The position numbers were made by a program, and so were the translations under genes. Below the pieces are notes generated by a model. It did no database searches and was not told where the DNA came from. It worked only from the letters and a program-made list of their open reading frames with translations. From a virus: 64,000 bases of DNA. Location of the stretch: the IMG/VR virus record IMGVR_UViG_3300045988_154040, one strand, 5' to 3'. How positions within the stretch are numbered: the stretch's first letter is position 1; each line of letters begins with the position of its first letter. Positions 3,377 to 54,253 of the stretch are shown here, in pieces.

Positions 3377-3562
3377 CTAAACTTTCTTTCTCCATGCTTT
3401 TTTATTATTATTACTATATCTTTTGCATTGTTTGTGTTTATTTGCTTCTATAGTTTCAAAATTTACAATGCATATATCTTCGCCTGTTCTTTTGTCATGA
3501 ATACATTTATCACAATTGACACAACTCTCTGATGGAAACAAAATAATTTTATTTCTACCCAT
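3377..3562 (-). CDS. small Cys-rich hypothetical protein
   Basis: 61 aa with CVNCDKC...C...C. ATG overlaps the stop of the polymerase gene. Confidence 0.4.
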   Translation of the reverse strand: MGRNKIILFPSESCVNCDKCIHDKRTGEDICIVNFETIEANKHKQCKRYSNNNKKAWRKKV

Positions 3563-5057: not shown

Positions 5058-5651
5058 CAGAATGTTTTAATTACATTTCTGTAACATATGTGCTTCATAA
5101 ACATATGAACATTCTTGGACTATATCTTTATAATAATTAAAAAATGAATGAATGATATTATAAAAAATAATAAAGGCAACAATTTATTTATTACGATTTA
5201 ATTTTCTTTTATACGGATTATTTCTAACTAATGTAGATTTAGTAATCCCTGTCATTTTAGCTACTTCATCATAAGTATGAGTTTTTAATAATTTTAATGC
5301 TTTACTCACTTTCTTTAATATTTTTCATAACAATCATTCATCCATCATCATTCATTTTTTAATATTATAGATTTGCACTTCCACTAACTTACCAATAGTT
5401 AGCGTACTTCCTTACGGAATAGTCTCTACATCTTCTTTAATATTACTATTAAAGCTTGACACGGTATTATCAGCTATCTATATATCTTAATATAGACCTT
5501 AGAATCTCTTAGTCAGTTGCTTCGTCTTTTTTTTATGCTGTAATCTAGTTGTAACTCTTATACAGCAGTCTTATTCAACTGATACCGTTAGCATTGCACT
5601 TCTATGCAACACACCCCTGGTAGGGTTCACAAATCATGACCATTTTTACAT
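5058..5651 (-). mobile_element. group I intron (intron B of dnaE)
   Basis: It separates ..ELFGMSFG(Y) from SFSQLHSYAYS. It contains GATATAGTC (5126-5118, minus) and a GTGAACC..GGGTGT element shared with the other introns. The candidate 3' terminal G is at 5058. Boundaries are uncertain by about 5 nt. Confidence 0.65.
5184..5309 (-). CDS. 41-aa helix-turn-helix ORF inside intron B (probable homing-endonuclease remnant)
   Basis: GTG start. Translation SKALKLLKTHTYDEVAKMTGITKSTLVRNNPYKRKLNRNK looks like the C-terminal HTH of phage homing endonucleases. No nuclease domain is present. Confidence 0.3.
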   Translation of the reverse strand: MSKALKLLKTHTYDEVAKMTGITKSTLVRNNPYKRKLNRNK

Positions 5652-6774
5652 AGCCGAAACTCATACCAAACAATTCATACCATATATAATTCGCAAATAA
5701 TTCCCGACATCCCTGTTTAGCACAATGTTCAAAGAACATAATTCTAGTTTCTTCTAACACTACGGGGTCTTTTTTAGCAATAGCTTTTCTTAATTTATTA
5801 GCCTGTTTAAGACTAAATCCTGCCACTCTTTTATCCATAGAGATAAGCATAACTTTCTCTTGAGATTCTGGAAGCATACGAGAATCAGAACAATATTGTC
5901 GTATAACATCCATTTCTTCTTCTGTTAATCCATAAGCATGACAGTCTTTTTCCCACTCTTTTATATCAGCATATCTAGCATATCTTTGTAAAGGTGTTTC
6001 TGTAGATTCTCCACTACCCATTAATCGTAAAATAGAATTAGTGGCTGATAATTCCATTAAATTTTTTGGTTGTACTACATTAATAGCATTTACTGATACA
6101 GGAGTATCAAACTGAAATAAAGAATAAATATCTTTAATAATACCCCACATTGCAGGATTATCATAATTAATAACGTCAGGATGTAAATATTTGTCATATG
6201 TGGCTTTCAAAGTTCCTTGCCATTCTAAATAATTATGCTCGATTAATAAATCCATTGTAGTTCTAAGTTTATCGCTGGCTTTTACAGTGAGCATATCTAC
6301 TTTAACAATTCCACAATCTTCACAATCTTGTAAATCATAACAAGTACATAAATCTCCGTTGGGTGCTCTCATACAAGAAATATAATTAGTATAAGGTTCA
6401 TTAGAGATAATTAATCCTGCGGCATGAAGTCCTCTACCAACAATAATACCCTCTAAGGCCAAAGCACATTCTTTAAGACCGGGGTATTTATTAATTTCAT
6501 TTATAAAATCTCTTACAGGTTTTCTTTCTTTTTTTGGATTTCCTTCTAAACAATCTTTAAGGCTCCATATCATACCTCTATCTACAGGTATTAAAGATTT
6601 AAGATACCCTGCTACATCATCAGAGATTCCTAAACCTTTACAAGATTTTTCTACTGCTGTTTTAGAAGTCATTTCAGAAAATGTAGCCACTTTTAAAACC
6701 TTATCAAATCCCCAGAATTTTGCAATGTTGTGTGCAATAATTTGCTTTTTTGTATTCTGAGAATCTAAATCAAT
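5652..6774 (-). CDS. dnaE: DNA polymerase III alpha subunit, exon 2
   Basis: In-frame extension upstream of the tracked ORF gives IDLDSQNTKKQIIAHNIAKFWGFDKVLKVATF. Further Pol III alpha motifs are GRGLHAAGLIIS and VKVDMLTVK. Confidence 0.75.
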
Positions 6775-7622
6775 CCTTTATACCCCTGGTTTCCCAGTAC
6801 TTTAACACATTTTATTTCAAATGTGGGAGTAGACTATATCTTCATCTTGTTTTATCAACAAGAGGATGGCACAGGATAAAAGGAATTTCACCTTTTACCA
6901 CTTAGTCGTTTGAGTTTCAGCGCAATGTAATAAGTTTGAAATTTCTACTATAACCCCTTCTCATTAACATAGAATGTGAAACATCTAAATTATGAGAATC
7001 AATATATTTCTTTACCTCAGTGTTACCTTTTAATTTTGGACTTTTATTACCATTAGGATAAACTATTATATAATATAAATAATTTCTTACTGCATTTATT
7101 CCTGATGTTTCATAACTTTTATTTATATTTTCTTTTTGAGTTACCCATTCTAAATTGGTGTAATGATTATTAAGTGTATTTGCATCTTTGTGATTTACTA
7201 CAGCCCCTTCAAACCATCCAGGAACAAATACCATAGCTACCAATTGATGAACCGCTTTTCTATACACTTTATTATCCTTACTTAAGTCCACATATTTGTA
7301 ACCGCCTTTATTAACAAATCCATTTAATACTTTGGGATTTTTATATTTATGGCTAATTACTTTTCCATCTTCTGTAACACTGTATTTTTCAAACTTATCA
7401 ATTATTTTTTCTATTCTTTTTTTAATTTCCTTTCTACATATTCTTATTACTTGCGCCGCTTACCACAGGATTACCATGCTTTTTAAAGTTTAGGCTTCCC
7501 CTGTTAGCACAATTCCTAATCATCATTTCCTATGATTCCTAAACGTGAATTGTACACCCTAGATTTCTAGGTTCACCATCTTATTTTCTATATGTCACCA
7601 TATAGCCAGACTATTGAAGTTA
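6775..7622 (-). mobile_element. group I intron (intron A of dnaE) carrying an HNH homing endonuclease
   Basis: Exon 1 ends ..GIEIPD (GAT at 7625-7623) followed by an in-frame TAA. Exon 2 starts ATT GAT TTA GAT at 6774 and is preceded by a G at 6775. The joined product reads PD|IDLD. It contains GATATAGTC (6840-6832, minus) and a core shared with the RNAP introns. Confidence 0.8.
6917..7291 (-). CDS. HNH homing endonuclease (HNH_3 type), intron-encoded
   Basis: VHQLVAMVF..VVNHKDANTLNNHYTNLEWVTQKENI. The frame stays open upstream to 7459 and encodes a conserved-looking N-terminal part, but there is no ATG/GTG/TTG before the GTG at 7291. Confidence 0.75.
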   Translation of the reverse strand: MDLSKDNKVYRKAVHQLVAMVFVPGWFEGAVVNHKDANTLNNHYTNLEWVTQKENINKSYETSGINAVRNYLYYIIVYPNGNKSPKLKGNTEVKKYIDSHNLDVSHSMLMRRGYSRNFKLITLR

Positions 7623-9026
7623 ATCTGGAATCTCAATACCTCTTTCTGTACTTAAATGTCTCCAATATGGAGCGTAGTCGCCCAGAGGTACAGGGTCAAT
7701 TTGTGTAATTTCTAATAAATAACATGTTAAATATCCAAAAGCTGAACCTCTGGACGGCATACAAAAACTATTTGATTCCCAAATTATTTCTACAATTCTG
7801 CTTACACTGGTATAATAAGCCGCCATATGAGATTTAAATATTTCACTTAATCCTTTTAATTCTTTTGCTTCTTTATTAATTCTATCAATATATGTTTCTA
7901 AATTCTTTTGTGGTTTACTTTCAATAAGTTTTTCTAATCCTTTTTCTATGCGATAGAAAAAATACTGGTCTTGAATATTATCAGAATAAGCATAATATTT
8001 AAAATACTCATATTTGTTATAATATTTTCTATATCTATGAGTAATTTTAAACTCTGGCAATTTATCTAATGGAATTTCTGGTATCATAGGCATATGTTTT
8101 AAATCATAAGTTCCCACTCTATCAGCTATTTCATTACTGTTATTAAAAATTTCATCAATTTCTTTATCTGTAAATGTGATTTGTAAGTATTCTCTTAATT
8201 CTTTAGGAGACATAAGATAAGTAGTTGCATAAAAAGAATCTACTTCTCTATCTCCTTCTTTAGAATTAAGCAAAGTTTTATGGTACAATGCTGATTCTTT
8301 ATTAAGATAATGAGTATCAGTAGTAGCTATAATTTTAAAGCCATATTGCTGAGAAAGTTCTTTCATAGTTTCATTTACTATAAGCTGGTCGGTATTATCG
8401 GCCTTACAAGGCTGAATTTCAAGGTAGAAATTGTCTGAGCCGAACACTTCTCCACACCATGTCATAAAACCGTCAATTCTCGCTTGTACTGCTTTATAAC
8501 CAGGTTCCTGTTTCTTCCATGTCAAGATAAGTCTATCCAGATAAGAATTGAGACAAGCAGAACTGGCAATAAGATGCCCCGTATTACCATTTATAACTTC
8601 TTCAATATCAGTGTAATAAGTAGGTCTACGCATAAGTCTACGAGAAGTGTATGCATGTTGCCATGCTCTACTACTTATTTCTCTTAATTGTTTATGTCCT
8701 TCCGTATCTAATGCAGTTAAAATAAAATGATAATAAGGAGTATATTCAGTTCCTTCTCTATTTGCTTTATCTTCTTTTTCGTTCATTAAATAAATTTCAT
8801 TACCTAATGCTAATTTAAAAGGTCTATCTTTCTCCATTTTTTCATAATATTTCAATGCTTGCATATGAGAAGATATTCCTTCATGTTCAGTAATGGATAT
8901 ACCAGATAATCCTTGGTCATATGCATACTGAATTAATTCATTAACTCTAGTAATTGCATCTGGGAAGCCTAATAAAGCACTACTATAACATGAATGATTA
9001 TGATTTCCAAAATATATATCAATCAA
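7623..9026 (-). CDS. dnaE: DNA polymerase III alpha subunit, exon 1 (PHP domain)
   Basis: TTG start with AAGGAGG 9 nt upstream. PHP motifs GNHNHSCYS, ISITEHEG and IATTDTHY. It ends at the PD of the PDxDxD active-site motif. Confidence 0.8.
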
Positions 9027-43063: not shown

Positions 43064-43652
43064 AAATATATTTACCTATCTGCTGTTCAAACAAATGATG
43101 ATAAAATAATTTTGCTTTATCCTCTAAAGATTCAAGGTCTTTGTTATTGTATACTACAAAATCATAGCGATAATTCTCTACGTCTTTATCGGCATGATTA
43201 GAGGTAACAGTGGGAACATTGGGATTTTTTACAAGTAAAGTATGACAAGTATTAGAACCAAAATAATTTACATATCTTTGAATTTCTTTTGGTTCGCGTG
43301 AATGAACAAAAATAAGTCCATCACCATTATTAAAATCATTAATATTTTTTATTGCCGTATTAATGTTTTTTATAGTTTCTTTGTAAGGTACATCATCCCA
43401 GCTAGAAAGTAAATCTTTTAAATCACTTAAAAATTTACGATTACTTTCAATTTTTGAACCATCCCATCCAGCTATAATAGCTAGACTTTTAACTAAATTA
43501 ACAGAATCAATATTACACATAATTCGTAGGGAAATAAGGGTATTTTCATCTATTGCTGAATTATTTGAATCATATGCTAATTTTAAACATAATTTAGCAA
43601 AAGTATCTTTACCTTTTCCTCCACTACCATTGATGATGATAACATGATACAT
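43056..43652 (-). CDS. P-loop kinase-like protein (phage dNMP-kinase-like)
   Basis: 198 aa. N-terminal P-loop IIINGSGGKGKDTFAK. Size and pattern resemble phage deoxynucleoside-monophosphate kinases. Confidence 0.4.
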   Translation of the reverse strand: MYHVIIINGSGGKGKDTFAKLCLKLAYDSNNSAIDENTLISLRIMCNIDSVNLVKSLAIIAGWDGSKIESNRKFLSDLKDLLSSWDDVPYKETIKNINTAIKNINDFNNGDGLIFVHSREPKEIQRYVNYFGSNTCHTLLVKNPNVPTVTSNHADKDVENYRYDFVVYNNKDLESLEDKAKLFYHHLFEQQIGKYIYD

Positions 43653-43683
43653 ATTTAACCTCCTTTTAGTCTATTTTATTTTA

Positions 43684-43712
43684 ATAATAACAGAATATAA
43701 TATAAATGTCAA
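43684..43712 (-). promoter_or_regulatory. sigmaA-type promoter (TTGACA-17-TATTAT), first promoter of the minus block
   Basis: Minus strand reads TTGACA (43712-43707), a 17-nt spacer, then TATTAT (43689-43684). Confidence 0.55.
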
Positions 43713-43926
43713 TATGTAATTTTTTATTATATATTTTATATTATATGTATATTAATTAAATATATGTATAATAATTATATAATATTATAAAATATATAAA
43801 TATAATATAATTAATAATAATTTATATTTAATTAATATTGTTATTACTAATTCCCCAAAATATTTGTATTGTTATTTTAGTTTTTTTGCAAGCAAAAAAA
43901 CCAAATAACGAAAACAAATATTTTTT

Positions 43927-44154
43927 CAATTGATATAATTAATATTTTTTATAAACATAAATTCACAAATTTCTTGGTTTTATATATAATAATAGTTATC
44001 TATAAACAATTACTAATATAAATTTATATAACTCTTTCCACTTCGTTACAAGAGTTATATAAATTTCTAAAGTAATTGTAATTATATCTAATTATTATTA
44101 TATATAAAACAGAAATTTATAAATTTATATAAAAAATATTAATTATATCAATTG
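43927..44154. repeat. ~230-bp AT-rich imperfect palindrome
   Basis: Outer arms are 27/27 bp perfect: CAATTGATATAATTAATATTTTTTATA (43927-43953) / TATAAAAAATATTAATTATATCAATTG (44128-44154). Inner arms are 17/17: AAATTTATATAACTCTT (44020-44036) / AAGAGTTATATAAATTT (44050-44066). Arms between them are largely complementary. The centre loop is 44037-44049. Confidence 0.85.
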
Positions 44155-44402
44155 GATAGGGGTATTTTTTATATAATAATTATATAATTAATAATATATA
44201 ATATATATTATTTATATTATTAAATATATTATATATTATTATATTTTATAATAATATTTATATATTATATTTTATATATAGTATATAGTATTACCTCCGA
44301 ATTTTTTCTTATACCGTTATTTTTTAAAAAATTTTTTATGTAATAAAAACAATTAATAAAATTAGTATAAAATGTCTTTATTTTTTAATATTAAAATATA
44401 TC

Positions 44403-44431
44403 TTGACAAAATTGTATATATAATATATAAT
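44403..44431 (+). promoter_or_regulatory. consensus sigmaA-type promoter (TTGACA-17-TATAAT) for the RNAP gene
   Basis: TTGACA at 44403-44408, a 17-nt spacer, TATAAT at 44426-44431, 36 nt upstream of the ATG at 44468. Confidence 0.65.
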
Positions 44432-44467
44432 ACAATCATCACAAAAAAATATTAAGAAAGGGACAAT

Positions 44468-45970
44468 ATGCAAAATAGTAGAAGAAAAATATTTAAGATT
44501 TCTACAGAGAGATTAGCTTCTAACAATTGGGATATTAAGTTAGACCAAAAATTAGCTGTAAGGTTAGATGAATTAGTAGATTTATTTGATAATCAGTCTT
44601 TTAGGTTGTTGGATATTATTTCCAAAGCTTACAAATCCAATCTTACAGATAAAGTGCTGGCAGTAGAAATATCTAAGAAAAAAGATTATGCCAGGGCTAC
44701 TTCTCCAAAAGGCATTTATGTAAATGGTTTTAATTTCCAATGGTTTGTAGGAACTACAGGAGGATTGAAAAATGAAACTATTTTATTTGTTCGTTCTGAC
44801 CTTTTAGAAGAATTAGATAAAAGATGTGAATGCGGCAGAAAAAAAGATTATAAACTGGTTCCTGCAAAGTACGAAGCTTATAAATCTCTTACTTGTTCTG
44901 CATCTTTAGAAATTGTGGAACCTAGAGATGTACTTGTGGTTTCTGATTGTTTTGTTGATTTTTATGACAATGTAATCAATATAGATGATACAAACAATGA
45001 CGAACCAGAAGTAACAATATTGGAAAATATTTTACTTGAAAACAATGGTAGTGATGGTTTAAATTTATGTACACCAGAATATATGCAGAGAGTAGCAGAA
45101 AAACTTAATTTAGATTATATTCCTGCTGGTGGCTGTTTAAGAAATGCTTGGCTTAAGGGAATGTTGTATGTGTTTGATATTCTTGATTTTGCCGAGAAAA
45201 TAGCTCAAACTTACGAAGTGAAAGATATTTGGGGACATATTCATGATATTCGCAATGTGGATATGATTATTACAGAATCCAGTTTAAAGATTTGGGATAA
45301 TTATGATAGTTGGGAAGATTATCATAGCAATTATATAAAAAATGGCTATCGTTTCGCCATGACTAAAGTTACACCTAAAGTTTTGGATGATGTAAGAGAA
45401 ATAAATTATCAGTACTTACAATCTTACGAATTGACAGATGAAGATATTAAAGAGTTGGCTAAACCTACTGTTGATTGGCTTAAGCAATCTTTGACTGGCG
45501 ATTATGAACAAACTTTAAAATTTCTGGGAATAAGTGAAAAAACAAAGAGTAATGATTATGCACAAGCATTATATCTTAATCCAGAAATGATGAAAGACCC
45601 TTATGTAATTGACAGAATTAATAAAATGATAAAGAAAAAAATCAATAATGCTAAGATTGGTAAATTATTGGTTAATGGAAATTATCAGCTTGTAAGTGGC
45701 GACCCTTATGCTTTAATGCAACATGTTTTTGGGTTAGAAGTTACAGGTCTTTTAGAAGCAAAAGAAGTTTATTCCAAATATTGGAATGATAAAGAAGATG
45801 CAGAAGAATTAGTATGTTTTCGTAGTCCTATGACAAGTCATAACAATATTCGTAAAATGAAAAGAATTAATAATGATACTGTGAATTATTGGTATCGTCA
45901 TATGGATACTATATTTATTATTAACAACAAAGATACGTTTTGTATGGCTATGAACGGATGCGATTTTGAT
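44468..45970 (+). CDS. single-subunit YonO-like (two-barrel) RNA polymerase, exon 1
   Basis: 501 aa ending ..FCMAMNGCDFD, followed by an in-frame TAG. Joining to exon 2 restores NGCDFDGD (compare the universal beta-prime NADFDGD motif). Confidence 0.7.
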
Positions 45971-46403
45971 TAGTAATATAGTCCTTTGTTTTTTAACAAA
46001 GCAAGTGGTGAACCATCAGAGTATGGGTGTATAGACTACTTTTTATTTATAAAAAAGGAATTGTAGGAAATGACAATTTGAGTCTGTGCTAACAGGGAAA
46101 GCCTAAACTTAATTGTAGATAAGCATGGTAATCCTGTGGGAAATAAAATAAAAATGTTTGCTTGTTGTAAAACAGAAAACAAACAAAAATATTTTTATTG
46201 GAAACCTTAAACGACTATCCCTTGGTCTGGTCGCAATATAAATACAGACAATAGGAGTAGGGCCATAGCGATATGGTGAGTGAAAACCTCTTAAATCGAA
46301 GTGCCACTGAACAAATATTGCAATTTAATATTTGTGAAAGATATAGTCTATTCCCTCCAAGCAATATTGGAGTTAAAGTACTGGGAAACCAGGGGTATTA
46401 AAG
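45971..46403 (+). mobile_element. group I intron 1 of the RNAP gene (no ORF)
   Basis: The 5' exon ends in T of GAT and the intron begins TAG. The intron ends ..GTATTAAAG with a terminal G at 46403. Contains GGTGAACC..GGGTGT (46007-46030), GCTAACAGGGAAAGCCTAAAC, TAAACGACTATCC (46208-46220) and AGATATAGTC (46339-46348). Confidence 0.8.
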
Positions 46404-46685
46404 GGAGATGCAATTTATTCTACAAATAATTCAGTATTGTTAAGAAAATATAAGGAACTATTGGCTATTCAGTGTGTACAAAGAAAAGCAGAAAAACAAA
46501 TTGTTACTAGGTCTATGATAAAAAAGAGCAATTACAAAGGATTGGGAAATGGGGTTGGTAAAATTACCAACGATGTATCCAGTATGATTGATATTCTCTT
46601 TGGGTTACAAAAGGGTACAATTGAGTACGAGACACTTTACAAACGTATTCTATGTGGTCAGCTATTTCAGCAAAATGAATTGGAT
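46404..46685 (+). CDS. YonO-like RNA polymerase, exon 2
   Basis: In-frame extension upstream of the tracked ORF gives GDAIYSTNNSVLLRKYKELLAIQ.. (94 codons). It ends ..QQNELD followed by TAA. Confidence 0.7.
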
Positions 46686-47165
46686 TAACCTAAAAAATTG
46701 AGTCCAATTAAAAATCGGTGAACCTAGAAATCTAGGGTGTTTATTCTACGTGCAGGAGCGGAATTGTAGTAAATGACAATTTGAGAATAAGCTAACAGGG
46801 AAAATCTTAATAATAAAAATATTAATATAAAATAATAAAAAAAGAGGTGAAAAATAAATGAAAAGAAAAGATTTAACAAATAATATTTATGGATGTTTAA
46901 AAGTATTATCTATAAATGAAGAAGAAACAAAACAGCAATTTAAAAAAATTATTATTAAGACAATCCTGTGCCAAGCTTAAAGAGAAATCTTTTTGAAGGT
47001 TAAACGACTAAGACATACGACCTAAGTTTTATAAAAAATATGGTTATGAAGTCTGTAGCTTTAAGGTGAAATTCCTTATTGCGAAGCGCCGATTGCCATT
47101 AGAATATTAATGGTAATGATATAGTCTATTCTCTATGGTGACATAGAGTAGTAAAGAAATTAAAG
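46686..47165 (+). mobile_element. group I intron 2 of the RNAP gene (with truncated ORF)
   Basis: Same family as intron 1. GGTGAACCTAGAAATCTAGGGTGT (46717-46740), TTAAACGACTAAG (47000-47012), GATATAGTC (47118-47126). Ends ..AATTAAAG with a terminal G at 47165. Confidence 0.8.
46858..46980 (+). pseudogene. 40-aa remnant of an intron-encoded homing endonuclease
   Basis: A strong SD (AAAGAGGTGAAAAATAA) precedes the ATG. MKRKDLTNNIYGCLKVLSINEEE.. resembles the N-termini of phage HNH/NUMOD endonucleases. The ORF then runs into the ribozyme core and stops. Confidence 0.4.
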
Positions 47166-47882
47166 GGTATTATTGCTAAAGATATGCCAAAGAATTGGTA
47201 TATGAGGAATCATTGTAAAACAGAAATTGATAAAAAAATAGTTGCTGATAAAAAACCATATTATTTCATGTATAATTATCCTACTATAAAAAAAGATTAT
47301 GATAATTATATTAAACATAGTAATAATAAATGTTTGATGTTATATGGATGTACCGTAGAAGAATTAGAAGCAAAATATTTGGAGAATCCAGAAATTTTTT
47401 CTGAGAACTGTAAAGAGTTTTTATATTGGTATCATGCACAAATGCCAGTTAATTGTTCTCCATCTACAATGAATCGTTTATGTTGGTATATTGAATCTGA
47501 GTTTAATGGATATGTCACTCAATTAAAGAATCAAAATTTTGACTATACTTTTTTAAAGAATAATAAAGTTGTTCGATATCCAAAAGCAAAAAAAGAAGAA
47601 ATTGAAAAATTAGAAAAAGAATATGTACGCAGAATTAAAAACTTTAAAATAATTGCCAAAGAAAATAATTTATCTGCTGAAGAAGCTAATAAAAAGACAG
47701 AAGCATTACAACAAGAATTTAGAGATGAAGCAATAAAAATTTGTTCTAATAAATGGCAATTGATGAATATAGTATTAGATTTATGCTATGGAAAGAATAA
47801 GAACAAATATTTTTGTTGGGCTGTTATTGGAGATTTAATAATTGAAAAATTAAAAGAAGATGGAGAGAAAGAAAATGAATAA
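47166..47882 (+). CDS. YonO-like RNA polymerase, exon 3
   Basis: In-frame GIIAKD precedes the tracked MPKNWY... 238 codons. The spliced product totals 833 aa. Confidence 0.65.
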   Translation, partial: GIIAKDMPKNWYMRNHCKTEIDKKIVADKKPYYFMYNYPTIKKDYDNYIKHSNNKCLMLYGCTVEELEAKYLENPEIFSENCKEFLYWYHAQMPVNCSPSTMNRLCWYIESEFNGYVTQLKNQNFDYTFLKNNKVVRYPKAKKEEIEKLEKEYVRRIKNFKIIAKENNLSAEEANKKTEALQQEFRDEAIKICSNKWQLMNIVLDLCYGKNKNKYFCWAVIGDLIIEKLKEDGEKENE

Positions 47883-48612
47883 AATAGTAGTAAATGAAAA
47901 AAAATATGTATTAGATGCTTTGAATGGCACTGAAAAACCTGATATTGGGTTTTATTCTTTTCTTAATTTGATATCTAAATATTATGCGGCTCAATGTGAT
48001 ACAGCAGAAGAAACAATTTACAATGTAGACGAACAGATGAAGAAACTTTATAAAGAAGAATATTTAAAAGAAAAATGGTATGTGTATATTTCTGGAATAT
48101 TCAAAAAGGTAAAAGAAGGAATTACCGGAATTAATGATAGAGAAGATGTAGTGGTTTACACATGGGATATGTGTCAAGTGTTTAAAGGAGAAACCGACCA
48201 GGAGCGTAAGCTATTGTTTTCAGCCTATGTTATAGCGCATTACATGGGGTGTAACGGCTGGTTAAATACTAAGACTAGTAAAAGTATCGCTAACTGGTTT
48301 GAAATAGCTAATGTGGCTTGTACTGGTTCAGATAGATTTCTTCTTTTAGGAGAAATGAAAAAGAAAGGATTAATAGAAACTACAAAAAAGTGTGATAACT
48401 TAAATATAAGAGTAAATATGCTTTCTGAGTATTTTGGAGAAACCCCGGTATTTAGAATTACTGAGTTAGAAAATCTAGGTAACTTATTAATAGCCACATA
48501 TAAGGATGGATATAAGCAGTGTAAGTGTGGCAGATTAATAAAAATTAATTCAAATAGACAGACGATGTGTAGATTTTGTGCTTCAAAAATTGACCAAAAA
48601 AGAGAGGGGTAG
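47875..48612 (+). CDS. hypothetical protein with C-terminal zinc ribbon
   Basis: Start set to the ATG at 47875 (GGAGAG upstream; overlaps the RNAP stop). C-terminal CKCGR...CRFC. Confidence 0.45.
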   Translation: MNKIVVNEKKYVLDALNGTEKPDIGFYSFLNLISKYYAAQCDTAEETIYNVDEQMKKLYKEEYLKEKWYVYISGIFKKVKEGITGINDREDVVVYTWDMCQVFKGETDQERKLLFSAYVIAHYMGCNGWLNTKTSKSIANWFEIANVACTGSDRFLLLGEMKKKGLIETTKKCDNLNIRVNMLSEYFGETPVFRITELENLGNLLIATYKDGYKQCKCGRLIKINSNRQTMCRFCASKIDQKREG

Positions 48613-48815
48613 AAGAAATAAGTACGAAAAAATAGGAATTAGAGGGTGTTAAAAAAGATAATAAAAACTATTGAAAAAATAGTCATAAAAATTCAAATGA
48701 CTTTGATTTGTTATAAGGGAGTAACAAAGAAACCAAAAGTAAATTGAGGATGTAAACTCGATAAAGAGTTGCAATCCTTAACAGAATAAAAAGAATTTAA
48801 AGGAGAATTAAAATT

Positions 48816-49169
48816 ATGGCAAAGAAAGTAATCAAGGTAACTGACATGACTTCCGCAGAACTGGTAAAGGCTATTGCGGCAAAATCTGGTGCATCTCAGG
48901 TGCAGACAAAGGCGGTTCTGAGCGCTATGGGCGAAGTTTGTAGAGAGTGTGCCGCCGCAGGTAAGAAGTTCAATCTGTTTGGCCTGGGAAAGATGGGATT
49001 TGCTCAGATTAATGGTAAGCCAGAGAGAAATGGTGTTATCAATCCTAGAACCGGAGAGAAGGGCCTGCTTCCTGAAACTCCTTCTTATACCAAGCCTGTA
49101 TTTAAGGTTTCTAAGAGTTTAGTGGATGAAATTAAGGAATCTACCAAGGGCCGCCCATTTGTAAAGTAA
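48816..49169 (+). CDS. HU/IHF-family DNA-binding protein
   Basis: 117 aa. KFNLFGLGKMGFAQINGKPERNGVINPRTGEKGLLPETPSYTKPVFKVSKSL matches the HU beta-arm pattern (GFG.F.v..r.ar.GrNP.TGe.i.i.....p.Fk). Confidence 0.75.
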   Translation: MAKKVIKVTDMTSAELVKAIAAKSGASQVQTKAVLSAMGEVCRECAAAGKKFNLFGLGKMGFAQINGKPERNGVINPRTGEKGLLPETPSYTKPVFKVSKSLVDEIKESTKGRPFVK

Positions 49170-49228
49170 GTTTCAACATTTTTTTAAAAATAAATTTTAA
49201 TTAATGTTGTGAGATTGGAGATTACCTT

Positions 49229-49729
49229 ATGGCAAGGACAGGAGCATCCAAAGCGAATGCGTTGACTTTGAGAGAAATCTCTGACCTTATAGCCGTTTCA
49301 GTAAAAAAACAGGGAAAAACTGTTACTGCTGAAACGGCTAAACTTTGCTATTTGGCTTTAATTGAAATTATAGCTGACGAACTTAAACGTAATGGAAAGT
49401 TCGTTATCACTAACATAGGTAGTTTGGAAACATATATGTTTGGTGGATTTATGCGAAACAGTTATAATGTTCAGACTAAAGAACATAAATTAGAAAAAGT
49501 GCCAGAAACAGTTGTAGTAAAGTTTAATCCGTCTGATTATATAAAGGCATATCTCAATAATAGAGAAATACCTTTAGGAATGAGGCGGAGAAGCAAAGAA
49601 GTTGAAAAAAAGGCCAGAGTAAGCAAAACAAAAAAAGAATTACTTAAAAAAGAAATGGCTGTAAAAAAGAAGAAAAAATACGAAAAAATTGTTCAACCTA
49701 TAGAAATTGATGTGGAAGAGGAAGATTAA
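49229..49729 (+). CDS. second HU-like protein with Lys-rich C-terminal extension
   Basis: 166 aa. The N-terminal two-thirds are HU-like (LIEIIADELKRNGKFVITNIGSLE..VVVKFNPS). The C-terminal tail reads KKARVSKTKKELLKKEMAVKKKKKYEK. Confidence 0.5.
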   Translation: MARTGASKANALTLREISDLIAVSVKKQGKTVTAETAKLCYLALIEIIADELKRNGKFVITNIGSLETYMFGGFMRNSYNVQTKEHKLEKVPETVVVKFNPSDYIKAYLNNREIPLGMRRRSKEVEKKARVSKTKKELLKKEMAVKKKKKYEKIVQPIEIDVEEED

Positions 49730-49751
49730 TTTAGTAGTATAAACATAAAAG

Positions 49752-49854
49752 TGAAGGTAAAATTAAGTTTGATAATCGAGTGTGGGTATAATGAAGATTC
49801 CGTTAGGAAAAGAGCCACTTTAAGATTACAAACTTAATTTTACCTTCATTTTTT
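49752..49854 (+). terminator. 20-bp perfect stem with 57-nt loop and T-run
   Basis: TGAAGGTAAAATTAAGTTTG (49752-49771) / CAAACTTAATTTTACCTTCA (49829-49848) followed by TTTTTT. Confidence 0.55.
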
Positions 49855-49887
49855 GACATTTTAATTTTAATACATAAATAAAAAAGA

Positions 49888-50796
49888 ATGGAAGTGATTG
49901 CGATGGCCACAGTTGTTAAAAAAATTCGTCCCATAACTGATTCTTATTGTATTAGGTGCAATAGACAGTATCCAATAGAAAATTTTTACAAAAGTGATAA
50001 TATTCATCACACTACAGGAGTAATGCCTTATTGTAAAAATTGTACTAAGGAAATGTATCAGGACAATTTAAAAAGATTTAAAGATATAAGAAGTGCTTTA
50101 TGGGTGACATGCAGTGAAGTTGGAATACCCTTTATGGAAAAAGTCTATGATAATCTTATGGAAAAAGTTAAAAAAGCTCGTGATGAAAAAGTTTTAACCA
50201 GTACATATAACTATTGGGGAAATTTTATTTCTAGTTATATGGGATTAAAGAAAAAAACAGATAAATGGGATAGTTTTGGAGTAACAGATGTAGATAAATC
50301 CGAAGCTATTTTAGATATTAGTCAAGAAAAATTAAGAAAAGAAAAACTCAAACAGTTTATTTTAGACTGGGGAGAACAAGATGAAGATGATTATGCGTAT
50401 CTTGAATATCGGTGGGATTTTTATACAGAAGATATAAACCTTACTCCTGCTCAGGAGAGTTTGTATAGAAAATTATGTATTTCAGAGTTAGATTATCGTA
50501 AAGCAAAAGAAAATGAAGAAAGCGGAAAAGAACAGCAAGAATCTATTCTTAAGCTTATGAAAACATTAAAAATTGATAATTTTACTCAAAAGAAAGAAAA
50601 AACTCTTACAGAACAAATGCTGGAAAAACAGATTTGGGAGATTGAGAACACCACTCCGGCTGAATGTGAAGATTTGAATAAATACAAAGATTTTTGTAAT
50701 ATTGAATCTGATTGGTTTAAGTATATTGTTTCTGCTGTTAAGAATTTGATTGCAGGAACGAAAGAATATCCTCTAATTCCCAGAAAACGTGATTAG
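49888..50796 (+). CDS. hypothetical protein, positional candidate for small terminase
   Basis: 302 aa directly upstream of terL. N-terminal CxxC..CxxC and a charged coiled-coil C-terminus. The call rests on position only. Confidence 0.3.
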   Translation: MEVIAMATVVKKIRPITDSYCIRCNRQYPIENFYKSDNIHHTTGVMPYCKNCTKEMYQDNLKRFKDIRSALWVTCSEVGIPFMEKVYDNLMEKVKKARDEKVLTSTYNYWGNFISSYMGLKKKTDKWDSFGVTDVDKSEAILDISQEKLRKEKLKQFILDWGEQDEDDYAYLEYRWDFYTEDINLTPAQESLYRKLCISELDYRKAKENEESGKEQQESILKLMKTLKIDNFTQKKEKTLTEQMLEKQIWEIENTTPAECEDLNKYKDFCNIESDWFKYIVSAVKNLIAGTKEYPLIPRKRD

Positions 50797-50810: not shown

Positions 50811-51362
50811 ATGAATGAAAATGAAGAAATAGAATTTAAACAACCTACTATAACAGAATTAATTGAAGAACGTAAAAGAAAAAATGAAGCAAAGAAAAAG
50901 AAAAATAAAAAAATACCTTATGAACAAAGAAGAAAAAATATTATAGAATGGACTACTTTTTATAGACGTAATTGGAATCTTTATGCAGTGCATAGATTAA
51001 TGTTGTCTCTATACCCTTTTCAGCATATTATGCTTTATTTAATGGGTATAAGTAGTACATTTTTTGCTATATGTAGTCGAGGTTTATCAAAAACCTTTAT
51101 TGTGGCATTAGGTGCGTTAATTCATGGATTGCTTTATCCTTATGCAGAAGTGGTTATTACTTCTTCTACTATTCCACAGGCCAAGAAAATGGTAGATAAG
51201 AAAATGGAGAATGAATTGTGTAAAAAACTTTCTCCATTGTTACAATATTATTATGAACATGAAGATATTAAATTTTCATATAGTGATAATGAGATAAAAG
51301 TTGAAATTAAACCAACAAATTCAACTATTTTAGTACTTCCTTGTTTGGACAGTGCTAGAGGT
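50811..51362 (+). CDS. terL: terminase large subunit, exon 1
   Basis: Walker A-like FAICSRGLSKTF. The exon ends ..CLDSARG (GGT at 51360-51362). The tracked ORF then reads 30 more codons into the intron. Confidence 0.7.
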
Positions 51363-51640
51363 GGAAACATTAAGTTGCACAACTCGCCTCTCTGGTTGGT
51401 GACAATCAGTAAAAATAAATTGGGAAAGAAACCTGGAAACCTGAAATGGTAATCAGAATGGAAGGATACGTGTAATAGCGTATTCACATGCAGAGCGTAG
51501 ACATTGAACCTGTTTGAATCAGAATATAATATGTCCAAGAGTTCCCAACCCTTTAAATATAAAGGTGAAAAGGTACGCCGACCTTGCTAGAAATACAATA
51601 GCAAGAACTATGGGATAAAAAGCCCATAGGATAACATTTG
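51363..51640 (+). mobile_element. small ORF-less intron in terL (group I-like, different subtype)
   Basis: 278 nt. Joining T51362 to G51641 (preceded by G51640) gives ..DSARG|ERATFLIYEE, restoring the usual spacing before Walker B (LIYEE). It lacks the GATATAGTC core of the other five introns. Confidence 0.55.
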
Positions 51641-52393
51641 GAACGTGCAACTTTTCTTATATATGAAGAATGTAGACTTTTGAAAAAGACTATTATAGAT
51701 AGTGTTTTTCAGAAAATGGCCCATCCACGTCAAGCTAAATTTTTAACTTTATCAGAATATCAAGATGAAGATGGAAAACCTTTATCTCGATGGTTAGAGG
51801 AATGTAAATCTGTTTATATTACTTCTGCTAGATTCAAGATAGAATGGTTTTGGACGGAATTTAAAAAAGTAGTTCAACAATGTATGATATCTAATAAGCA
51901 TAAATATAATTTCTTTGCAGGAAATATATTTTTAGCAATATTATATGGTTTAAAAACATGGCAAGATTATTTTCATGCCAAAGAATTTGATAGTGATATA
52001 GACCATAGAACAGAGGATTTAAATGAAATGATAGGGGAAGCAGATGGAGCTTTCTTTTCTATGGAATCTTTTAAAAAGAACCAAATTATACGTAATGCTT
52101 TTAAACCTCCTACTATATTGGATTTATATTCTAATGTAGATTTAGGAAACAGACCCAAGAAAGATGGAGAAAAACGATTAATATTCATTGACTATGCTTT
52201 TGCGAATACTACATCAAATTCTAAAAATGATAACAGTGTTATTGGCTGTATGTCTGTTATTTTTAGAGATGATGGGAAAACCTTAAGGGAAGTAGATTAT
52301 ATAGGTACTCACCCCGCAGGAGACAGTATAGGATTTAACTTGAAAATTAGAGAATTTTTCTTTGATTATCAAGCTGACTATATTGTATTGGAT
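51641..52393 (+). CDS. terL: terminase large subunit, exon 2
   Basis: ERATFLIYEECRLL (Walker B). First nuclease acidic motif RLIFIDYAFANT. Ends ..DYIVLD followed by TAA. Confidence 0.7.
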
Positions 52394-53670
52394 TAATTCT
52401 GAGGTCCACTTTTATGGTGACATAAAATGAATAAATGTGTTGAATTGCTGGAAACCCCTAAAGCCACATGAACCACAACGTAAGTATGAAATAAGACTAA
52501 GCGTGATGGTGACGAAAGTAGAAAAAATCATGTGGATGGCATAAGGTTAAATCCTAAGTGCTTTAAAATGGGCAATCAGCCGCCAAGCTCTGAATAGGAG
52601 AAGGTTCAACGACTATCCCGCAAGGGAGTACACTGCAAGCGATTGGCAGTGGAAGTGGCACACATCTTATGAAATTAAGATGAAGATATAGTCTGCTCTA
52701 TATGGAAACATATAGTATCTAACGTGTAGCGGCGTTTTCTTAACTTATAAAAAGTAAATAAGACAGAGGGTAGCTCCCTTTTCTTGTACTGCAATACAGG
52801 ATTATTATTTACTTTTTATCATATCTTTTTGCAGAAAGGTTTAAGGTAGAAATTATGAAAATTTGGGAAGTAAATTCTAGTAAGCGTTTTAATTTTGGTT
52901 GTATTTATTTATGGACTAATCTTATTAATGGTAAACATTATGTTGGACAGACAGTTAATTTTTATCAACGTATTCAACGATATAAGAAAGGTTTAATTAA
53001 TTCTTATATGAAAGAAGATATTGATAAATATGGTATGGAAAATTTTAAAGTTGAAATATTGGAAAGGATAGAAGATATTTCAAATGAAGATTTCCTTACT
53101 GAAAGAGAGCAATATTGGATGGATTATTATCAGTCTTATGATTTAGAAAAAGGCTATAATATATTTGATGTTGCTGGCAATGTCTGTTATTTAAAACGTA
53201 GTGATACTATTAAAGAAAGATTTTGTGGAGAAGGAAATGGAATGTATGGTAAACATCATTCTGATGAATGGAAACAAAATCATTCTGATTGCGTAAAAGG
53301 TTTGTGGAAAAAAGAAGAATATAGAAAAGTTCAGACAGAAAGGATGCAAGGAGAAAATAATCCTATGTATGGGGTATCTTTAGATGGTGAGAAAAATGGA
53401 ATGTATGGTAAACATCATTCTGATGAAACCAAAAGAAAGATAGCTGAAAGTAAAATAGGGAAAACTCATGCACCTACTCATTTTAAAAGAGTGAGATGTG
53501 TTGAAACTGGAAAAATCTATAATAGTCAGAGTGAAGCCGCACAAGAGTATGGCATAACTCCGGCCGCAATCAGTTTAGTTTGTAAAGGTAAAAATAAGAC
53601 AGCCAAGAAAATGCATTGGGAATTTGTAGACTAATCTCAAAAATAGTAATAGAAACAATACAAGACTCAG
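52394..53670 (+). mobile_element. group I intron in terL carrying a GIY-YIG homing endonuclease
   Basis: Begins TAA after a GAT codon, like the RNAP and dnaE-A introns. Core TTCAACGACTATCCC and GATATAGTC (52685-52693). The 3' boundary is unresolved within about 53630-53680. Confidence 0.7.
52855..53634 (+). CDS. GIY-YIG homing endonuclease (I-TevI/Seg-like) with NUMOD3 repeats and C-terminal HTH
   Basis: GCIYLWTNLINGKHYVGQT, EREQYWMDYY, repeated NGMYGKHHSDE(W/T)K, C-terminal IYNSQSEAAQEYGITPAAISLVCKGK. Confidence 0.85.
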   Translation: MKIWEVNSSKRFNFGCIYLWTNLINGKHYVGQTVNFYQRIQRYKKGLINSYMKEDIDKYGMENFKVEILERIEDISNEDFLTEREQYWMDYYQSYDLEKGYNIFDVAGNVCYLKRSDTIKERFCGEGNGMYGKHHSDEWKQNHSDCVKGLWKKEEYRKVQTERMQGENNPMYGVSLDGEKNGMYGKHHSDETKRKIAESKIGKTHAPTHFKRVRCVETGKIYNSQSEAAQEYGITPAAISLVCKGKNKTAKKMHWEFVD

Positions 53671-54253
53671 AAATGGCGGTGAAGTAAATTTTAATGACCT
53701 TACTACAATTCTTGAACATCCTCAAAGAGATGAAAAACATTGGAATAGTCATGGATTTACTGTTTGTCATGAAAACAAATTGCATGTACTTCCAAAAGCT
53801 AAGATTGAAGATTTGAAAAGTAGGGCTGTTGACCAACAAGCAATTCCTGCTATTATTCCTATTCAGGGTACAGAGGAATTAAACAGTAATATGTGGTTAG
53901 ACTTACAAAAAGCTCTTAAAGGTGAATATATTCATTTCTTAATTGATGAACTTAATTTGGAAACTTTGATGGAAGAAGATTTAAGTTATTTTGATTTAAG
54001 TAGCGAAGAAAAAGCAATTATTAAATTGCCTTATGTTCATACTCTGGAAATGATAGGTGAAGCTATAAGTCTTAATCAAACCTGGAACGGAGGTAAGGTT
54101 AAACTTCATGAACCTACCACAACAGATGCTACAAAGGATAAAATAGTAGCAGTTAGTTATTGTAACTATATAGCTACTTTACTGGAAAATAAATATGCTA
54201 TACAAAATCAAAATGATACTAGTATGATTGATATAGAACAATTGGTATTTTAA
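53671..54253 (+). CDS. terL: terminase large subunit, exon 3 (start approximate)
   Basis: The frame is open from 53630 and reads ..RNGGEVNFNDLTTILEHPQRDEKHWNSHGFTVC.. before the tracked TTG start. It continues the nuclease domain after ..DYIVLD. Confidence 0.6.

What the first reader, a model, noticed from the sequence alone, without database searches (positions are those of the whole stretch)
44468..47882. YonO-like single-subunit RNA polymerase in three exons, with the first intron splitting the catalytic DFDGD motif
Seen in the sequence:
- ORF 1 ends ..AMNGCDFD then TAG.
- 433 nt later the same frame resumes with GDAIYS.., so splicing T45970 to G46404 rebuilds NGCDFDGD.
- A second intron (46686-47165) joins ..QQNELD to GIIAKDMPKNWY.
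- The spliced product is 833 aa.

Established knowledge: NADFDGD is the invariant Mg-binding motif of the beta-prime double-psi beta-barrel. YonO of B. subtilis prophage SPbeta is a single-polypeptide RNAP of this two-barrel family, and its gene lies next to an HU-like gene, as here.

Inference: this phage needs two self-splicing events before it can make its own, presumably late, RNAP. Splicing could therefore act as a timer or checkpoint. The gene also has a perfect host sigmaA promoter (44403-44431). I am not aware of a described intron-split YonO-type RNAP.
Basis: partly seen in the sequence, partly recalled or inferred. Interest (0 to 1): 0.8.

Follow-up and report, generated by a model that had tools for sequence, protein, structure and literature searches.

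The report
Two self-splicing introns in phage RNA polymerase
A gut-bacterium phage carries its own small YonO-type RNA polymerase gene cut into three pieces by two selfish group I introns, one sitting inside the enzyme's catalytic motif; this is a classic kind of mobile-intron invasion seen here in a gene type where it had not been described.

Summary
Window 44468-47882 is 99.9% identical to Enterocloster phage CB473P3. It encodes a YonO-family single-chain two-barrel RNA polymerase in three exons.

- **Intron 1 (45971-46403, 433 nt):**
- **Intron 2 (46686-47156, 471 nt):** Intron-less alleles read NELD|KLKGII, so the product is 836 aa, not 833.

An uninterrupted allele in sibling phage PMBT24 fixes both junctions to the base. 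Both insertions:
- follow a U that pairs with a G of an internal guide sequence, and end in G;
- carry the group I core elements;
- show many compensatory base-pair changes.

They score below Rfam's threshold.

Occupancy of the two sites varies among near-identical phages (0, 1 or 2 introns). 74 of 80 related viral contigs have none. Fuller copies of intron 2 carry an HNH endonuclease gene, of which the window keeps only a 40-aa remnant. The same D|G site is also occupied in Clostridium phage c-st, whose protein is 38% identical.

These are therefore selfish homing introns. No evidence supports the proposed timer or checkpoint role. This is a new member of a known kind, of moderate interest.

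The parts
44403..44431 (+). Sigma-70/sigmaA-type promoter, TTGACA-17 nt-TATAAT, 37 nt upstream of the ATG
   Evidence: It is the only 12/12 match in 43600-49900. TTGACA-17-TATAAT is also present upstream of the gene in PMBT24, the CB phages and the 78%-identity clade, the latter with a different spacer sequence. Its function is inferred, not shown.
44455..44463 (+). Likely ribosome-binding site (AGAAAGGGA)
   Evidence: Read directly from the sequence. The motif is conserved in relatives. Inference only.
44468..45970 (+). Exon 1 (aa 1-501). It holds the beta-like barrel, the RSP motif and the first two catalytic Asp residues (..NGCDFD). Its last base is U45970.
   Evidence: It is 98.3% identical to nt 1-1503 of the intron-less PMBT24 allele. 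The same 501-aa fragment is on record on 79 contigs (P0023).
45971..46403 (+). Intron 1, a 433-nt group I intron with no endonuclease ORF, ending in G46403
   Evidence: It is absent from PMBT24 at exactly this point. RF00028 gives a full-length alignment at 39 bits, E 4e-8, below the gathering score of 50. Core strands: P4 46092-46097 with 46132-46137, and P7 GACTA 46213-46217 with TAGTC 46344-46348. Hairpins covary among relatives.
45979..45983 (+). Internal guide sequence of intron 1 (UAGUC). G45981 pairs with the splice-site U45970. P1 is GAU|UA with UAGUC, 5 bp.
   Evidence: Sequence. GUCC is conserved in all site-1 introns, and the pairing is longer in relatives whose exon ends GGAU.
46404..46685 (+). 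Exon 2 (aa 502-595), GDAIYS...QQNELD. Its last base is U46685.
   Evidence: Aligns to PMBT24 nt 1504-1785 at 91.8% identity.
46686..47156 (+). Intron 2, a 471-nt group I intron ending in G47156, with a degenerate endonuclease ORF in the P5 loop
   Evidence: The boundaries come from three other alleles. RF00028 matches only the P7-P9 part (27 bits, E 1.4e-4). The 5' core is homologous to intron 1 (blastn E 1e-12). In the site-2 alignment 95% of cells are paired and 22 pairs changed on both sides, against 0-3 in slid controls. P3 is 46714-46720 with 47087-47093. P7 is 47006-47010 with 47122-47126.
46702..46709 (+). Internal guide sequence of intron 2 (GUCCAAUU). It pairs with exon bases 46678-46685 (AAUUGGAU), giving 8 bp with a U46685-G46702 wobble.
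   Evidence: Sequence. The splice-site U-G pair is invariant in 5 of 5 sequences. The exon -7 position covaries with the guide: A-U here, C-G in L078.
46858..46980 (+). 40-aa ORF, the N-terminal remnant of the intron-encoded HNH homing endonuclease
   Evidence: 60% identity over 30 aa to the start of the 250-aa ORF in intron 2 of CB473P1. That ORF has HNH_3 (weak, precomputed) and AP2 hits. The alignment shows about 650 nt deleted in the window.
47157..47882 (+). Exon 3 (aa 596-836 plus the TAA stop), starting KLKGIIAKDMPKNWY
   Evidence: PMBT24 nt 1786-2496 aligns from 47157. The KxKG motif is conserved in the family.
48816..49729 (+). Two HU-family genes (48816-49169 and 49229-49729) downstream. 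This matches the yonO-yonN order in SPbeta.
   Evidence: Pfam PF00216 at E 2.9e-14 and 1.4e-7. SPbeta yonN also hits PF00216, E 1.7e-36.

Best explanation
The locus is one gene for a YonO-family single-polypeptide, two-barrel DNA-dependent RNA polymerase of 836 aa. Two mobile group I introns interrupt it.

Inferred expression route:
1. Host RNA polymerase transcribes the gene from the consensus promoter at 44403-44431.
2. Each intron RNA folds, pairs the last exon bases with its internal guide sequence (a U-G wobble at the splice site), and is excised by the standard two-step guanosine-initiated transesterification.
3. The ligated mRNA reads ...NGCDFD-GDAIYS... and ...QQNELD-KLKGII....

By analogy with SPbeta YonO, the resulting polymerase would transcribe the late (structural) genes that lie downstream on the same strand.

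The introns are selfish homing elements:
- They sit at two of the most conserved coding motifs, the DxD|GD Mg-binding loop and QQNELD|KxKG.
- Their presence varies among near-identical phages.
- Intron 2 in relatives carries an HNH endonuclease gene, which has decayed in this phage.

Shown: gene identity, exact insertion boundaries, group I hallmarks, covariation, polymorphic occupancy, and purifying selection on the downstream exons.

Inferred: actual self-splicing, promoter use, the late-gene role, and homing by the HNH enzyme.
For: Protein identity:
- tblastn and BLASTP hit SPbeta YonO (E 4e-17 and 5e-30). DFDGD aligns with DNDGD, FRSPM with LRSPH, and AKIGKLLV with AKSGKLLV.
- D499, D501, D503, R452, P454, K396 and K399 are invariant in 41 homologues.
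- The AF2 model has pLDDT 90.8 and pTM 0.85. Foldseek's best matches are RDR2 and QDE-1 (E 4e-16 to 1e-11, TM about 0.5), followed by RNAP beta'.
- The HU neighbour is present, as in SPbeta.

Introns:
- The intron-less PMBT24 allele defines the junctions at 45970/46404 and 46685/47157.
- Each upstream exon ends in U and each intron ends in G.
- RF00028 hits are 39 bits (E 4e-8) and 27 bits (E 1.4e-4).
- P1 in intron 2 is 8 bp, with a compensatory change in L078.
- 22 of 75 pairs have changes on both sides and 95.4% of cells are paired, against 0-3 pairs and 31-46% paired in slid controls.
- Covarying hairpins are also found in the intron-1 family.

Selfish behaviour:
- Occupancy is 0, 1 or 2 among sibling phages.
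- 74 of 80 IMG/VR loci are uninterrupted, and all six interrupted ones break at aa 501|502 or 595|596.
- Site 1 is also occupied in the 78%-identity clade and in Clostridium phage c-st at 38% identity. The c-st insert hits RF00028 at 25 bits, E 1.4e-4.
- The intron-2 ORF is HNH/AP2-like, is intact in some relatives, frameshifted in L015, and deleted in the window.

Evidence that the exons are expressed:
- Exons 2 and 3 have no stop codons in any intron-bearing allele, and dN/dS is 0.13-0.23.
- The window is 99.9% identical to a cultured lytic isolate.
Against: - No RNA data are available, so splicing has not been observed.
- All RF00028 scores are below the gathering score of 50.
- The exon side of P1 in intron 1 is only 3 bp (GAU/GUC) in this phage. 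Its guide sequence GUCC would fit a GGAU exon better.
- The fold differs from the canonical layout, with two hairpins between the P3 5' strand and P4. Activity therefore cannot be assumed from the textbook model.
- The covariation test rests on 5 sequences from about 3 lineages, and the structure was derived from those same sequences. One helix of that test (helix 4) mixes misaligned columns.
- The late-gene role is borrowed from SPbeta (PMC5467207).
- This phage family also encodes a sigma factor (PMC11035940), so the polymerase's importance here is untested.
Confidence: 0.85

Rival explanations
1. Regulatory timer or checkpoint. The two splicing events are slow or conditional, and so set when the phage polymerase appears and late transcription starts.
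For: - The gene must be spliced twice before an active enzyme can be made, and intron 1 cuts the catalytic loop.
- P1 of intron 1 is weak in this phage, which could slow the first step.
- The structural genes lie directly downstream.
Against: - Near-identical phages on the same host species lack one or both introns, and 74 of 80 relatives have none. No conserved requirement therefore exists.
- The introns carry, or have lost, homing-endonuclease genes.
- They coexist with further introns in the DnaE and terminase genes, which is typical of parasitic spread.
- No sequence feature points to regulated splicing.
Confidence: 0.06
2. Dead gene. One or both introns no longer splice, so the polymerase is not made. 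The phage survives on host RNA polymerase plus its own sigma factor.
For: - Rfam scores are below threshold.
- P1 of intron 1 is short.
- The endonuclease ORFs are decayed.
- The phage family encodes a SigK-like sigma factor (PMC11035940).
Against: - Exons 2 and 3 are intact and under purifying selection (dN/dS 0.13-0.23) between intron-bearing alleles. This holds even for c-st, where the exon after the site-1 intron is 37% identical and has no stop codon.
- The intron helices keep pairing through compensatory changes.
- The promoter and RBS are conserved.
Confidence: 0.06
3. Split enzyme. The three ORFs are translated separately and assemble non-covalently, like the split beta and beta' subunits of jumbo phages.
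For: Gene callers annotate separate ORFs in CB473P3. Split RNAP subunits do exist in jumbo phages (PMC2919709, PMC7824862).
Against: - The break falls inside the five-residue Mg-binding loop DFD|GD.
- Exon 2 has no start codon at its beginning, only an internal TTG or ATG.
- The gaps have group I structure, and sibling phages have a single uninterrupted ORF.
Confidence: 0.02

Closest known systems
YonO of Bacillus subtilis prophage SPbeta (single-chain two-barrel RNAP; Forrest et al. 2017, PMC5467207)
   Same: - About 840 aa, with 25% identity over 562 aa (E 5e-30).
- The Asp triad, the RSP motif and the K-rich motif all align.
- An HU-family gene lies just downstream.
- A YonG_N-family gene lies further downstream in relatives.
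   Different: - SPbeta yonO is uninterrupted.
- The motif is DNDGD there and DFDGD here.
- The C-terminal third is barely alignable.
- The host phage here is a virulent Enterocloster siphovirus-type phage, not a Bacillus prophage.
PhiPA3 gp210 intron in the virion RNAP beta-like gene gp211/209 (Birkholz et al. 2024, PMC11620839), and the 201phi2-1 gp273/274 'mobile intron' (PMC2919709)
   Same: A group I intron, carrying an HNH endonuclease in PhiPA3, is inserted next to conserved Asp codons of an essential phage two-barrel RNAP gene. Occupancy is polymorphic among related phages.
   Different: - Those genes encode multisubunit (beta-like) polymerases of jumbo phages. Here the gene is a single-chain YonO type.
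- The split here is in the beta'-type DxDGD triad.
- There are two introns 282 nt apart.
- The endonuclease is lost from both introns in this phage.
- Splicing and homing were not tested here.
Intron-rich Firmicute phages such as Twort and SPO1, and T4 td/nrdB group I introns (own knowledge; Landthaler and Shub 1999 is cited in PMC11620839)
   Same: - Several group I introns per genome, sitting in essential genes at conserved sites.
- More than one intron in a single gene.
- P7.1/P7.2-type insertions between P7 and P3'.
- Endonuclease ORFs located in peripheral loops.
   Different: - These introns score under the RF00028 threshold.
- They appear to have two extra hairpins between the P3 5' strand and P4.
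- The host gene class is new.
Eukaryotic RNA-dependent RNA polymerases QDE-1 and RDR2
   Same: They are the best structural matches to the predicted fold (E 4e-16 to 1e-11, TM about 0.5). Some homologues carry faint Pfam RdRP hits (PF05183).
   Different: - Only 11-13% sequence identity.
- The GenBank label 'RNA-dependent RNA polymerase' on PMBT24 is an annotation transfer. The characterised phage relative YonO is DNA-dependent (PMC5467207).

Membership tests
YonO-like single-chain two-barrel RNAP | Significant sequence similarity to YonO along the catalytic region | tested here: met
   BLASTP E 5e-30, 25% identity over 562 aa. tblastn hits yonO in SPbeta-like phages at E 1e-17.
YonO-like single-chain two-barrel RNAP | Catalytic Asp triad DxDGD in the beta'-like double-psi beta-barrel | tested here: met
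   D499, D501 and D503 (DFDGD) appear only after removing intron 1. They are invariant in 41 homologues and align with YonO's DNDGD.
YonO-like single-chain two-barrel RNAP | The other invariant residues of two-barrel RNAPs: R-x-P before the triad, and two Lys plus one Asp in the beta-like barrel (PMC2919709) | tested here: inconclusive
   - R452-S-P454 is invariant and aligned with YonO's RSP.
- K396 and K399 are invariant in AKIGKLLV.
- I did not make a residue-level structural superposition, so the equivalence of the Lys and Asp residues to Rpb2 K979, K987 and D837 is not shown.
YonO-like single-chain two-barrel RNAP | Two-barrel fold in one polypeptide | tested here: met
   AF2 model with pLDDT 90.8. 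The top 21 PDB matches are all QDE-1 or RDR2 (probability 1.00), followed by RNAP beta' chains. PDB sequence searches found nothing significant (best E 0.62 for the single sequence, no match for the profile).
YonO-like single-chain two-barrel RNAP | DNA-templated RNA synthesis and transcription of phage late genes | not testable with these tools
   Known for SPbeta YonO only (PMC5467207). Here it is an inference from homology and gene order.
Group I intron (RF00028) | Rfam covariance-model score at or above the gathering score (50 bits) | tested here: not met
   - Intron 1 scores 39 bits (E 4e-8, full-length alignment).
- Intron 2 scores 27 bits over the P7-P9 part only (E 1.4e-4).
- Both are missed in whole-window scans.
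- This is an operational cut-off of one model, not a defining property of the class. The third intron in the window scores 96 bits.
Group I intron (RF00028) | The 5' exon ends in U, paired with a G of an internal guide sequence (P1). The intron ends in G. | tested here: met
   - U45970 pairs with G45981, and U46685 with G46702.
- The terminal G residues are G46403 and G47156.
- P1 of intron 2 is 8 bp, the U-G pair is invariant, and one position covaries.
Group I intron (RF00028) | Conserved core: the P4/P6 domain, the P3-P8 domain, and the P7 pseudoknot (R and S elements) | tested here: met
   - Both introns have R (AACGACTA) and S (GATATAGTCT) elements with a 5-bp P7.
- P3, P4, P6, P8 and P9 are kept, with 22 pairs changed on both sides, and hairpins covary in the intron-1 family.
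- Caveats: few sequences, and a non-canonical spacing between P3 and P4.
Group I intron (RF00028) | Precise excision restores a reading frame co-linear with intron-less alleles | tested here: met
   PMBT24, L011, L012, L014 and 70 further loci are uninterrupted. The junctions match to the base.
Group I intron (RF00028) | Guanosine-dependent self-splicing | not testable with these tools
   Needs in vitro transcription and splicing, or RNA from infected cells.
Mobile (homing) intron with HNH endonuclease | Intron-encoded endonuclease ORF | tested here: not met
   - The window's intron 1 has no ORF longer than 42 aa. Its intron 2 keeps only a 40-aa N-terminal remnant.
- Relatives of intron 2 (CB473P1, L007, L086) carry 250-256-aa ORFs with HNH_3 (weak) and AP2 hits.
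- The window's copies are therefore descendants of a mobile intron, but are not autonomously mobile.
Mobile (homing) intron with HNH endonuclease | Patchy presence at a fixed site among closely related genomes | tested here: met
   Sites aa 501|502 and 595|596 are occupied in some, but not all, alleles of 98%, 78%, 65% and 38% identity.

The most novel reading that the evidence does not exclude
The introns may be more than passive passengers. The HNH-bearing form of intron 2 could cut intron-less YonO-type alleles of co-infecting phages at or near the catalytic-site codons. Intron 1, only 282 nt away and lacking its own enzyme, could hitch-hike on the resulting co-conversion. Intron-bearing phages would then gain an interference-competition advantage, as shown for PhiPA3 gp210. 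The recurrence of the D|G site in polymerases only 38% identical would then reflect repeated targeting of an immutable sequence.
Probability: 0.2. Interest if true: 0.6.

Novelty: new member of a known kind. Interest (0 to 1): 0.4.

Why it matters
- **Annotation.** In GenBank CB473P3 the gene is listed as five 'hypothetical proteins', and in c-st as 'N-ter only' and 'C-ter only' fragments. The phage's own RNA polymerase is therefore invisible to annotation-based surveys. The introns also fall under Rfam's threshold, so similar cases are probably being missed in gut-phage genomes.
- **Biology.** Mobile introns at conserved sites are already known in jumbo-phage multisubunit RNAP genes. This case extends that habit to the minimal YonO branch of two-barrel polymerases, here in the catalytic Asp triad itself.
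- **Experimental system.** Near-isogenic phages with 0, 1 or 2 introns give a natural set for testing homing, interference competition and any cost of splicing.
- It does not change what is known about how group I introns or YonO enzymes work.

Tried and rejected
- **Rfam, whole window.** At the gathering threshold and at E <= 0.1, the scan finds only the unrelated intron at 52385-52715. The two introns appear only in a narrow-region scan.
- **Rfam, multiple loci.** A combined scan of L003, L004 and L006 at E <= 0.01 found nothing. Narrow scans later gave 25 bits for c-st and 16 bits for L078.
- **Protein databases.** Pfam finds no family for the joined protein, and PHROGs gives only 'unknown function' families. 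PDB sequence and profile searches found nothing significant: the single sequence gave only E 0.62 matches to CCA-adding enzymes and the profile gave none. Only structure comparison identified the fold.
- **P3 from the Rfam alignment (CUGUG.UA with UG.CACUG).** I rejected it. That 5' segment forms a local, covarying stem with an upstream strand. The 3' strand instead pairs with a distal covarying 7-mer.
- **Helix 4.** It mixes columns, because MAFFT placed L078's true P4 strand against a look-alike (GUGCAGGA) in the other rows. By hand, the true P4 (ACAGGG/UCCUGU versus ACGGUG/UAUCGU) still keeps pairing, with two changes on both sides.
- **Custom covariance model.** Not built, because the introns exceed the 400-column and calibration-time limits.
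- **Other readings considered and rejected.**
  - Intein: there are in-frame stops, and the inserts have RNA-level features.
  - Frameshift or readthrough: the insert is 433 nt, contains many stops, and changes frame.
  - Assembly artefact: the same arrangement occurs in six isolates and many metagenome contigs.
- **Literature.** Searches for YonO plus intron returned only author-name noise or nothing relevant.

Full report
**What is in the sequence**

The + strand between 44468 and 47882 holds three open pieces:
- 44468-45973 ends ...AMNGCDFD followed by TAG.
- A piece starting GGA GAT GCA (GDAIYS...) at 46404 runs to ...QQNELD followed by TAA at 46686.
- A third piece runs to the TAA at 47880-47882.

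Joining 45970 to 46404 restores NGCDFDGD. The first gap is 433 nt, which is not a multiple of three. Exons 1 and 2 are therefore in different genomic frames, and only exact removal joins them.

The region 44300-48000 is 99.9% identical, in one piece, to Enterocloster phage CB473P3 (OP172757.1). This is a lytic isolate from sewage grown on E. bolteae DA473. In that record the gene is annotated as five separate 'hypothetical proteins'.

**An intron-less allele fixes the boundaries**

The related phage PMBT24 (OQ326496.2) has a single 831-aa CDS, labelled 'RNA-dependent RNA polymerase'. blastn of that CDS against the window gives three blocks:

| PMBT24 nt | Window |
|---|---|
| 1-1503 | 44468-45970 |
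| 1504-1785 | 46404-46685 |
| 1786-2496 | 47157-47882 |

Intron 2 is 46686-47156 (471 nt), not 46686-47165.

The nine bases AAA TTA AAG (KLK) belong to exon 3. PMBT24 reads NELD-KLK-GII, and CB473P1 and CB457P1 align the same way. In a 41-sequence alignment of the family D595 and K598 are invariant and K596 nearly so. The product is 836 aa.

**The protein is a YonO-type polymerase**

- tblastn finds yonO of SPbeta-like phages (E about 1e-17).
- BLASTP against SPbeta YonO gives E 5e-30 and 25% identity over 562 aa. DFDGD aligns with YonO's DNDGD, FRSPM with LRSPH, and AKIGKLLV with AKSGKLLV.
- Forrest et al. showed that the YonO Asp triad is catalytic and that YonO transcribes SPbeta late genes (PMC5467207).
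- Pfam and PDB sequence searches are uninformative: Pfam finds no family and the PDB searches give nothing significant.
- An AlphaFold model built on 41 homologues is confident (pLDDT 90.8, pTM 0.85).
- Its 21 best PDB matches are all QDE-1 or RDR2 (E 4e-16 to 1e-11, TM about 0.5). Bacterial and archaeal RNAP large subunits follow.
- As in SPbeta, where yonO is followed by the HU gene yonN, HU-family genes follow here.
- The family is large: 1,489 proteins at E <= 1e-5 among the candidates scored.

**The insertions are group I introns**

- Each is preceded by a U and ends in G.
- Each has an internal guide sequence.
  - In intron 2, GUCCAAUU (46702-46709) pairs with exon AAUUGGAU (46678-46685). 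This gives 8 bp, with the U-G wobble at the splice site.
  - In the 65%-identity clade the exon changes at -7 (A to C) and the guide changes with it (U to G).
  - In intron 1 the pairing is GAU|UA with UAGUC, only 3 bp on the exon side. Relatives whose exon ends GGAU pair better with the conserved GUCC.
- Both carry the R (AACGACUA) and S (GAUAUAGUCU) elements that form P7.
- Rfam RF00028 aligns intron 1 end to end at 39 bits (E 4e-8). It aligns the P7-P9 part of intron 2 at 27 bits (E 1.4e-4). Both are below the 50-bit gathering score.
- The two introns share core blocks (blastn E 1e-12 and 5e-5).
- On five site-2 introns from three lineages, 95.4% of cells in the proposed helices are paired and 22 of 75 pairs changed on both sides. 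With the partner slid by 1-3 columns the figures are 0-3 pairs and 31-46% paired.
- Caveats on that test: the structure was derived from the same sequences, and one helix (P4) was partly misaligned.
- The site-1 family shows further covarying hairpins, for example AAUUGU/ACAAUU, AAUCAU/AUGAUU and AGCUAU/AUAGUU.

**They behave as selfish homing elements**

Occupancy differs among sibling phages:
- PMBT24 has none.
- CB473P1, CB473P2 and CB457P2 have only site 2. In CB473P1, the allele examined directly, the insert is 1131 nt and holds a 250-aa ORF.
- CB457P1 and the window have both.

Of 80 related IMG/VR loci, 74 are uninterrupted. The six interrupted loci break at aa 501|502 or 595|596 and nowhere else.

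Other lineages show the same two sites:
- A 78%-identity clade has both sites filled.
- A 65%-identity clade has site 2 filled, with inserts of 316 or 1112 nt.
- Clostridium phage c-st, only 38% identical, has a 317-nt group I intron (RF00028 25 bits, E 1.4e-4) at exactly NGMDMD|GD.

The intron-2 ORF is HNH/AP2-like. It sits in the P5 loop and is frameshifted in L015. In the window it is reduced to a 40-aa remnant at 46858-46980.

Both sites lie in invariant protein motifs, which is the usual habit of homing introns (PMC2814812).

The window also has other interrupted genes:
- A 96-bit group I intron with a GIY-YIG ORF sits in a split terminase gene.
- A DnaE gene is interrupted by an HNH ORF and a weak RF00028 hit.

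**Evidence that the exons are still used**

- Exons 2 and 3 are free of stop codons in every intron-bearing allele.
- dN/dS between such alleles is 0.13-0.23.
- The promoter TTGACA-17-TATAAT at 44403-44431 is the only 12/12 match in the region. It is kept in relatives, even with a different spacer.
- Splicing itself remains inferred.

The 'timer or checkpoint' idea has no support. The introns are dispensable at the population level and carry the marks of parasitic elements.

**Comparison with what is known**

- Group I introns in phage RNAP genes are known for jumbo phages. Examples are PhiPA3 gp211/209 with HNH gp210, which also gives a competitive advantage (PMC11620839), and 201phi2-1 gp273/274 (PMC2919709).
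- I found no paper describing an intron in a YonO-type gene.
- Iyer et al. list the c-st protein as YonO-like without mentioning its split (PMC7824862).
- This is therefore a new member of a known kind. It is useful mainly for annotation and as an experimental system.

Noticed in passing
window 50811-54253 (+): The terminase large-subunit gene looks split into ORFs 50811-51452 (weak Terminase_6N hit), 51638-52396 and 53780-54253. A canonical group I intron lies at 52385-52715 (RF00028, 96 bits), followed by a GIY-YIG/NUMOD3 endonuclease ORF at 52855-53634. There may be a second intervening sequence around 51400-51640.
   Followed up: partly
window 3562-9026 (-): The DNA polymerase III alpha (DnaE-type) gene is in pieces: 7620-9026 (PHP plus the start of the NTPase domain), 5602-6690 (the rest of that domain plus the fingers) and 3562-4956 (HHH_6). 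An HNH_3 ORF at 6917-7291 and a weak RF00028 hit at 6942-6807 (20.9 bits, E 0.009) lie in the first gap. This suggests at least one more group I intron.
   Followed up: partly
window 46004-46097 and 46714-46811; alignments A4 and A5: Both RNAP introns seem to have a non-canonical layout. The covarying helix whose 3' strand abuts P8 (P3: AGUGGUG/UGCCACU in intron 1, AUCGGUG/CGCCGAU in intron 2) has its 5' strand 80-90 nt upstream of P4. In intron 2 that strand follows P1 closely; in intron 1 a further hairpin (CUUUGUU/AACAAAG) lies between P1 and it. Two covarying hairpins are inserted between the P3 5' strand and P4. This may explain the sub-threshold Rfam scores. I did not check it against the group I subgroup literature.
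   Followed up: partly
L006 (Clostridium phage c-st NC_007581) 4154-4470: The c-st YonO homologue, annotated as separate 'N-ter only' and other ORFs, is interrupted at the same D|G codon boundary by a 317-nt group I intron. Only its 3' part (P7'-P9.1) resembles the window's intron 1. The rest looks more canonical, which hints at independent or chimeric introns using one site.
   Followed up: partly
window 45971-46403 versus exon 45965-45970: The guide sequence of intron 1 (GUCC) would pair with an exon ending GGAU, as in DWDGD or DMDGD alleles. The exon here ends UGAU (DFDGD). This suggests the intron arrived from an allele with a different middle codon. Exon identity to PMBT24 drops from 98.3% upstream of the introns to 91.8% and 87.9% downstream, which is consistent with co-conversion tracts.
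   Followed up: no
window 45970 / 47157: The two introns are 282 nt (94 codons) apart. Both upstream exons end in GAU and both guide sequences contain GUCC. Exon skipping (joining exon 1 to exon 3) would stay in frame and give a catalytically dead protein. Such skipping is known for phage Twort. It was not tested here.
   Followed up: no
L015 1581-2712 and L004 1745-2275: The endonuclease ORFs are at different stages of decay. The HNH ORF of intron 2 is frameshifted in L015. Intron 1 of CB457P1 has about 100 extra nt in P6 with an RBS-like AAGGGAG followed by GTG, possibly the stump of a lost ORF. No site-1 intron with an intact endonuclease was seen.
   Followed up: no
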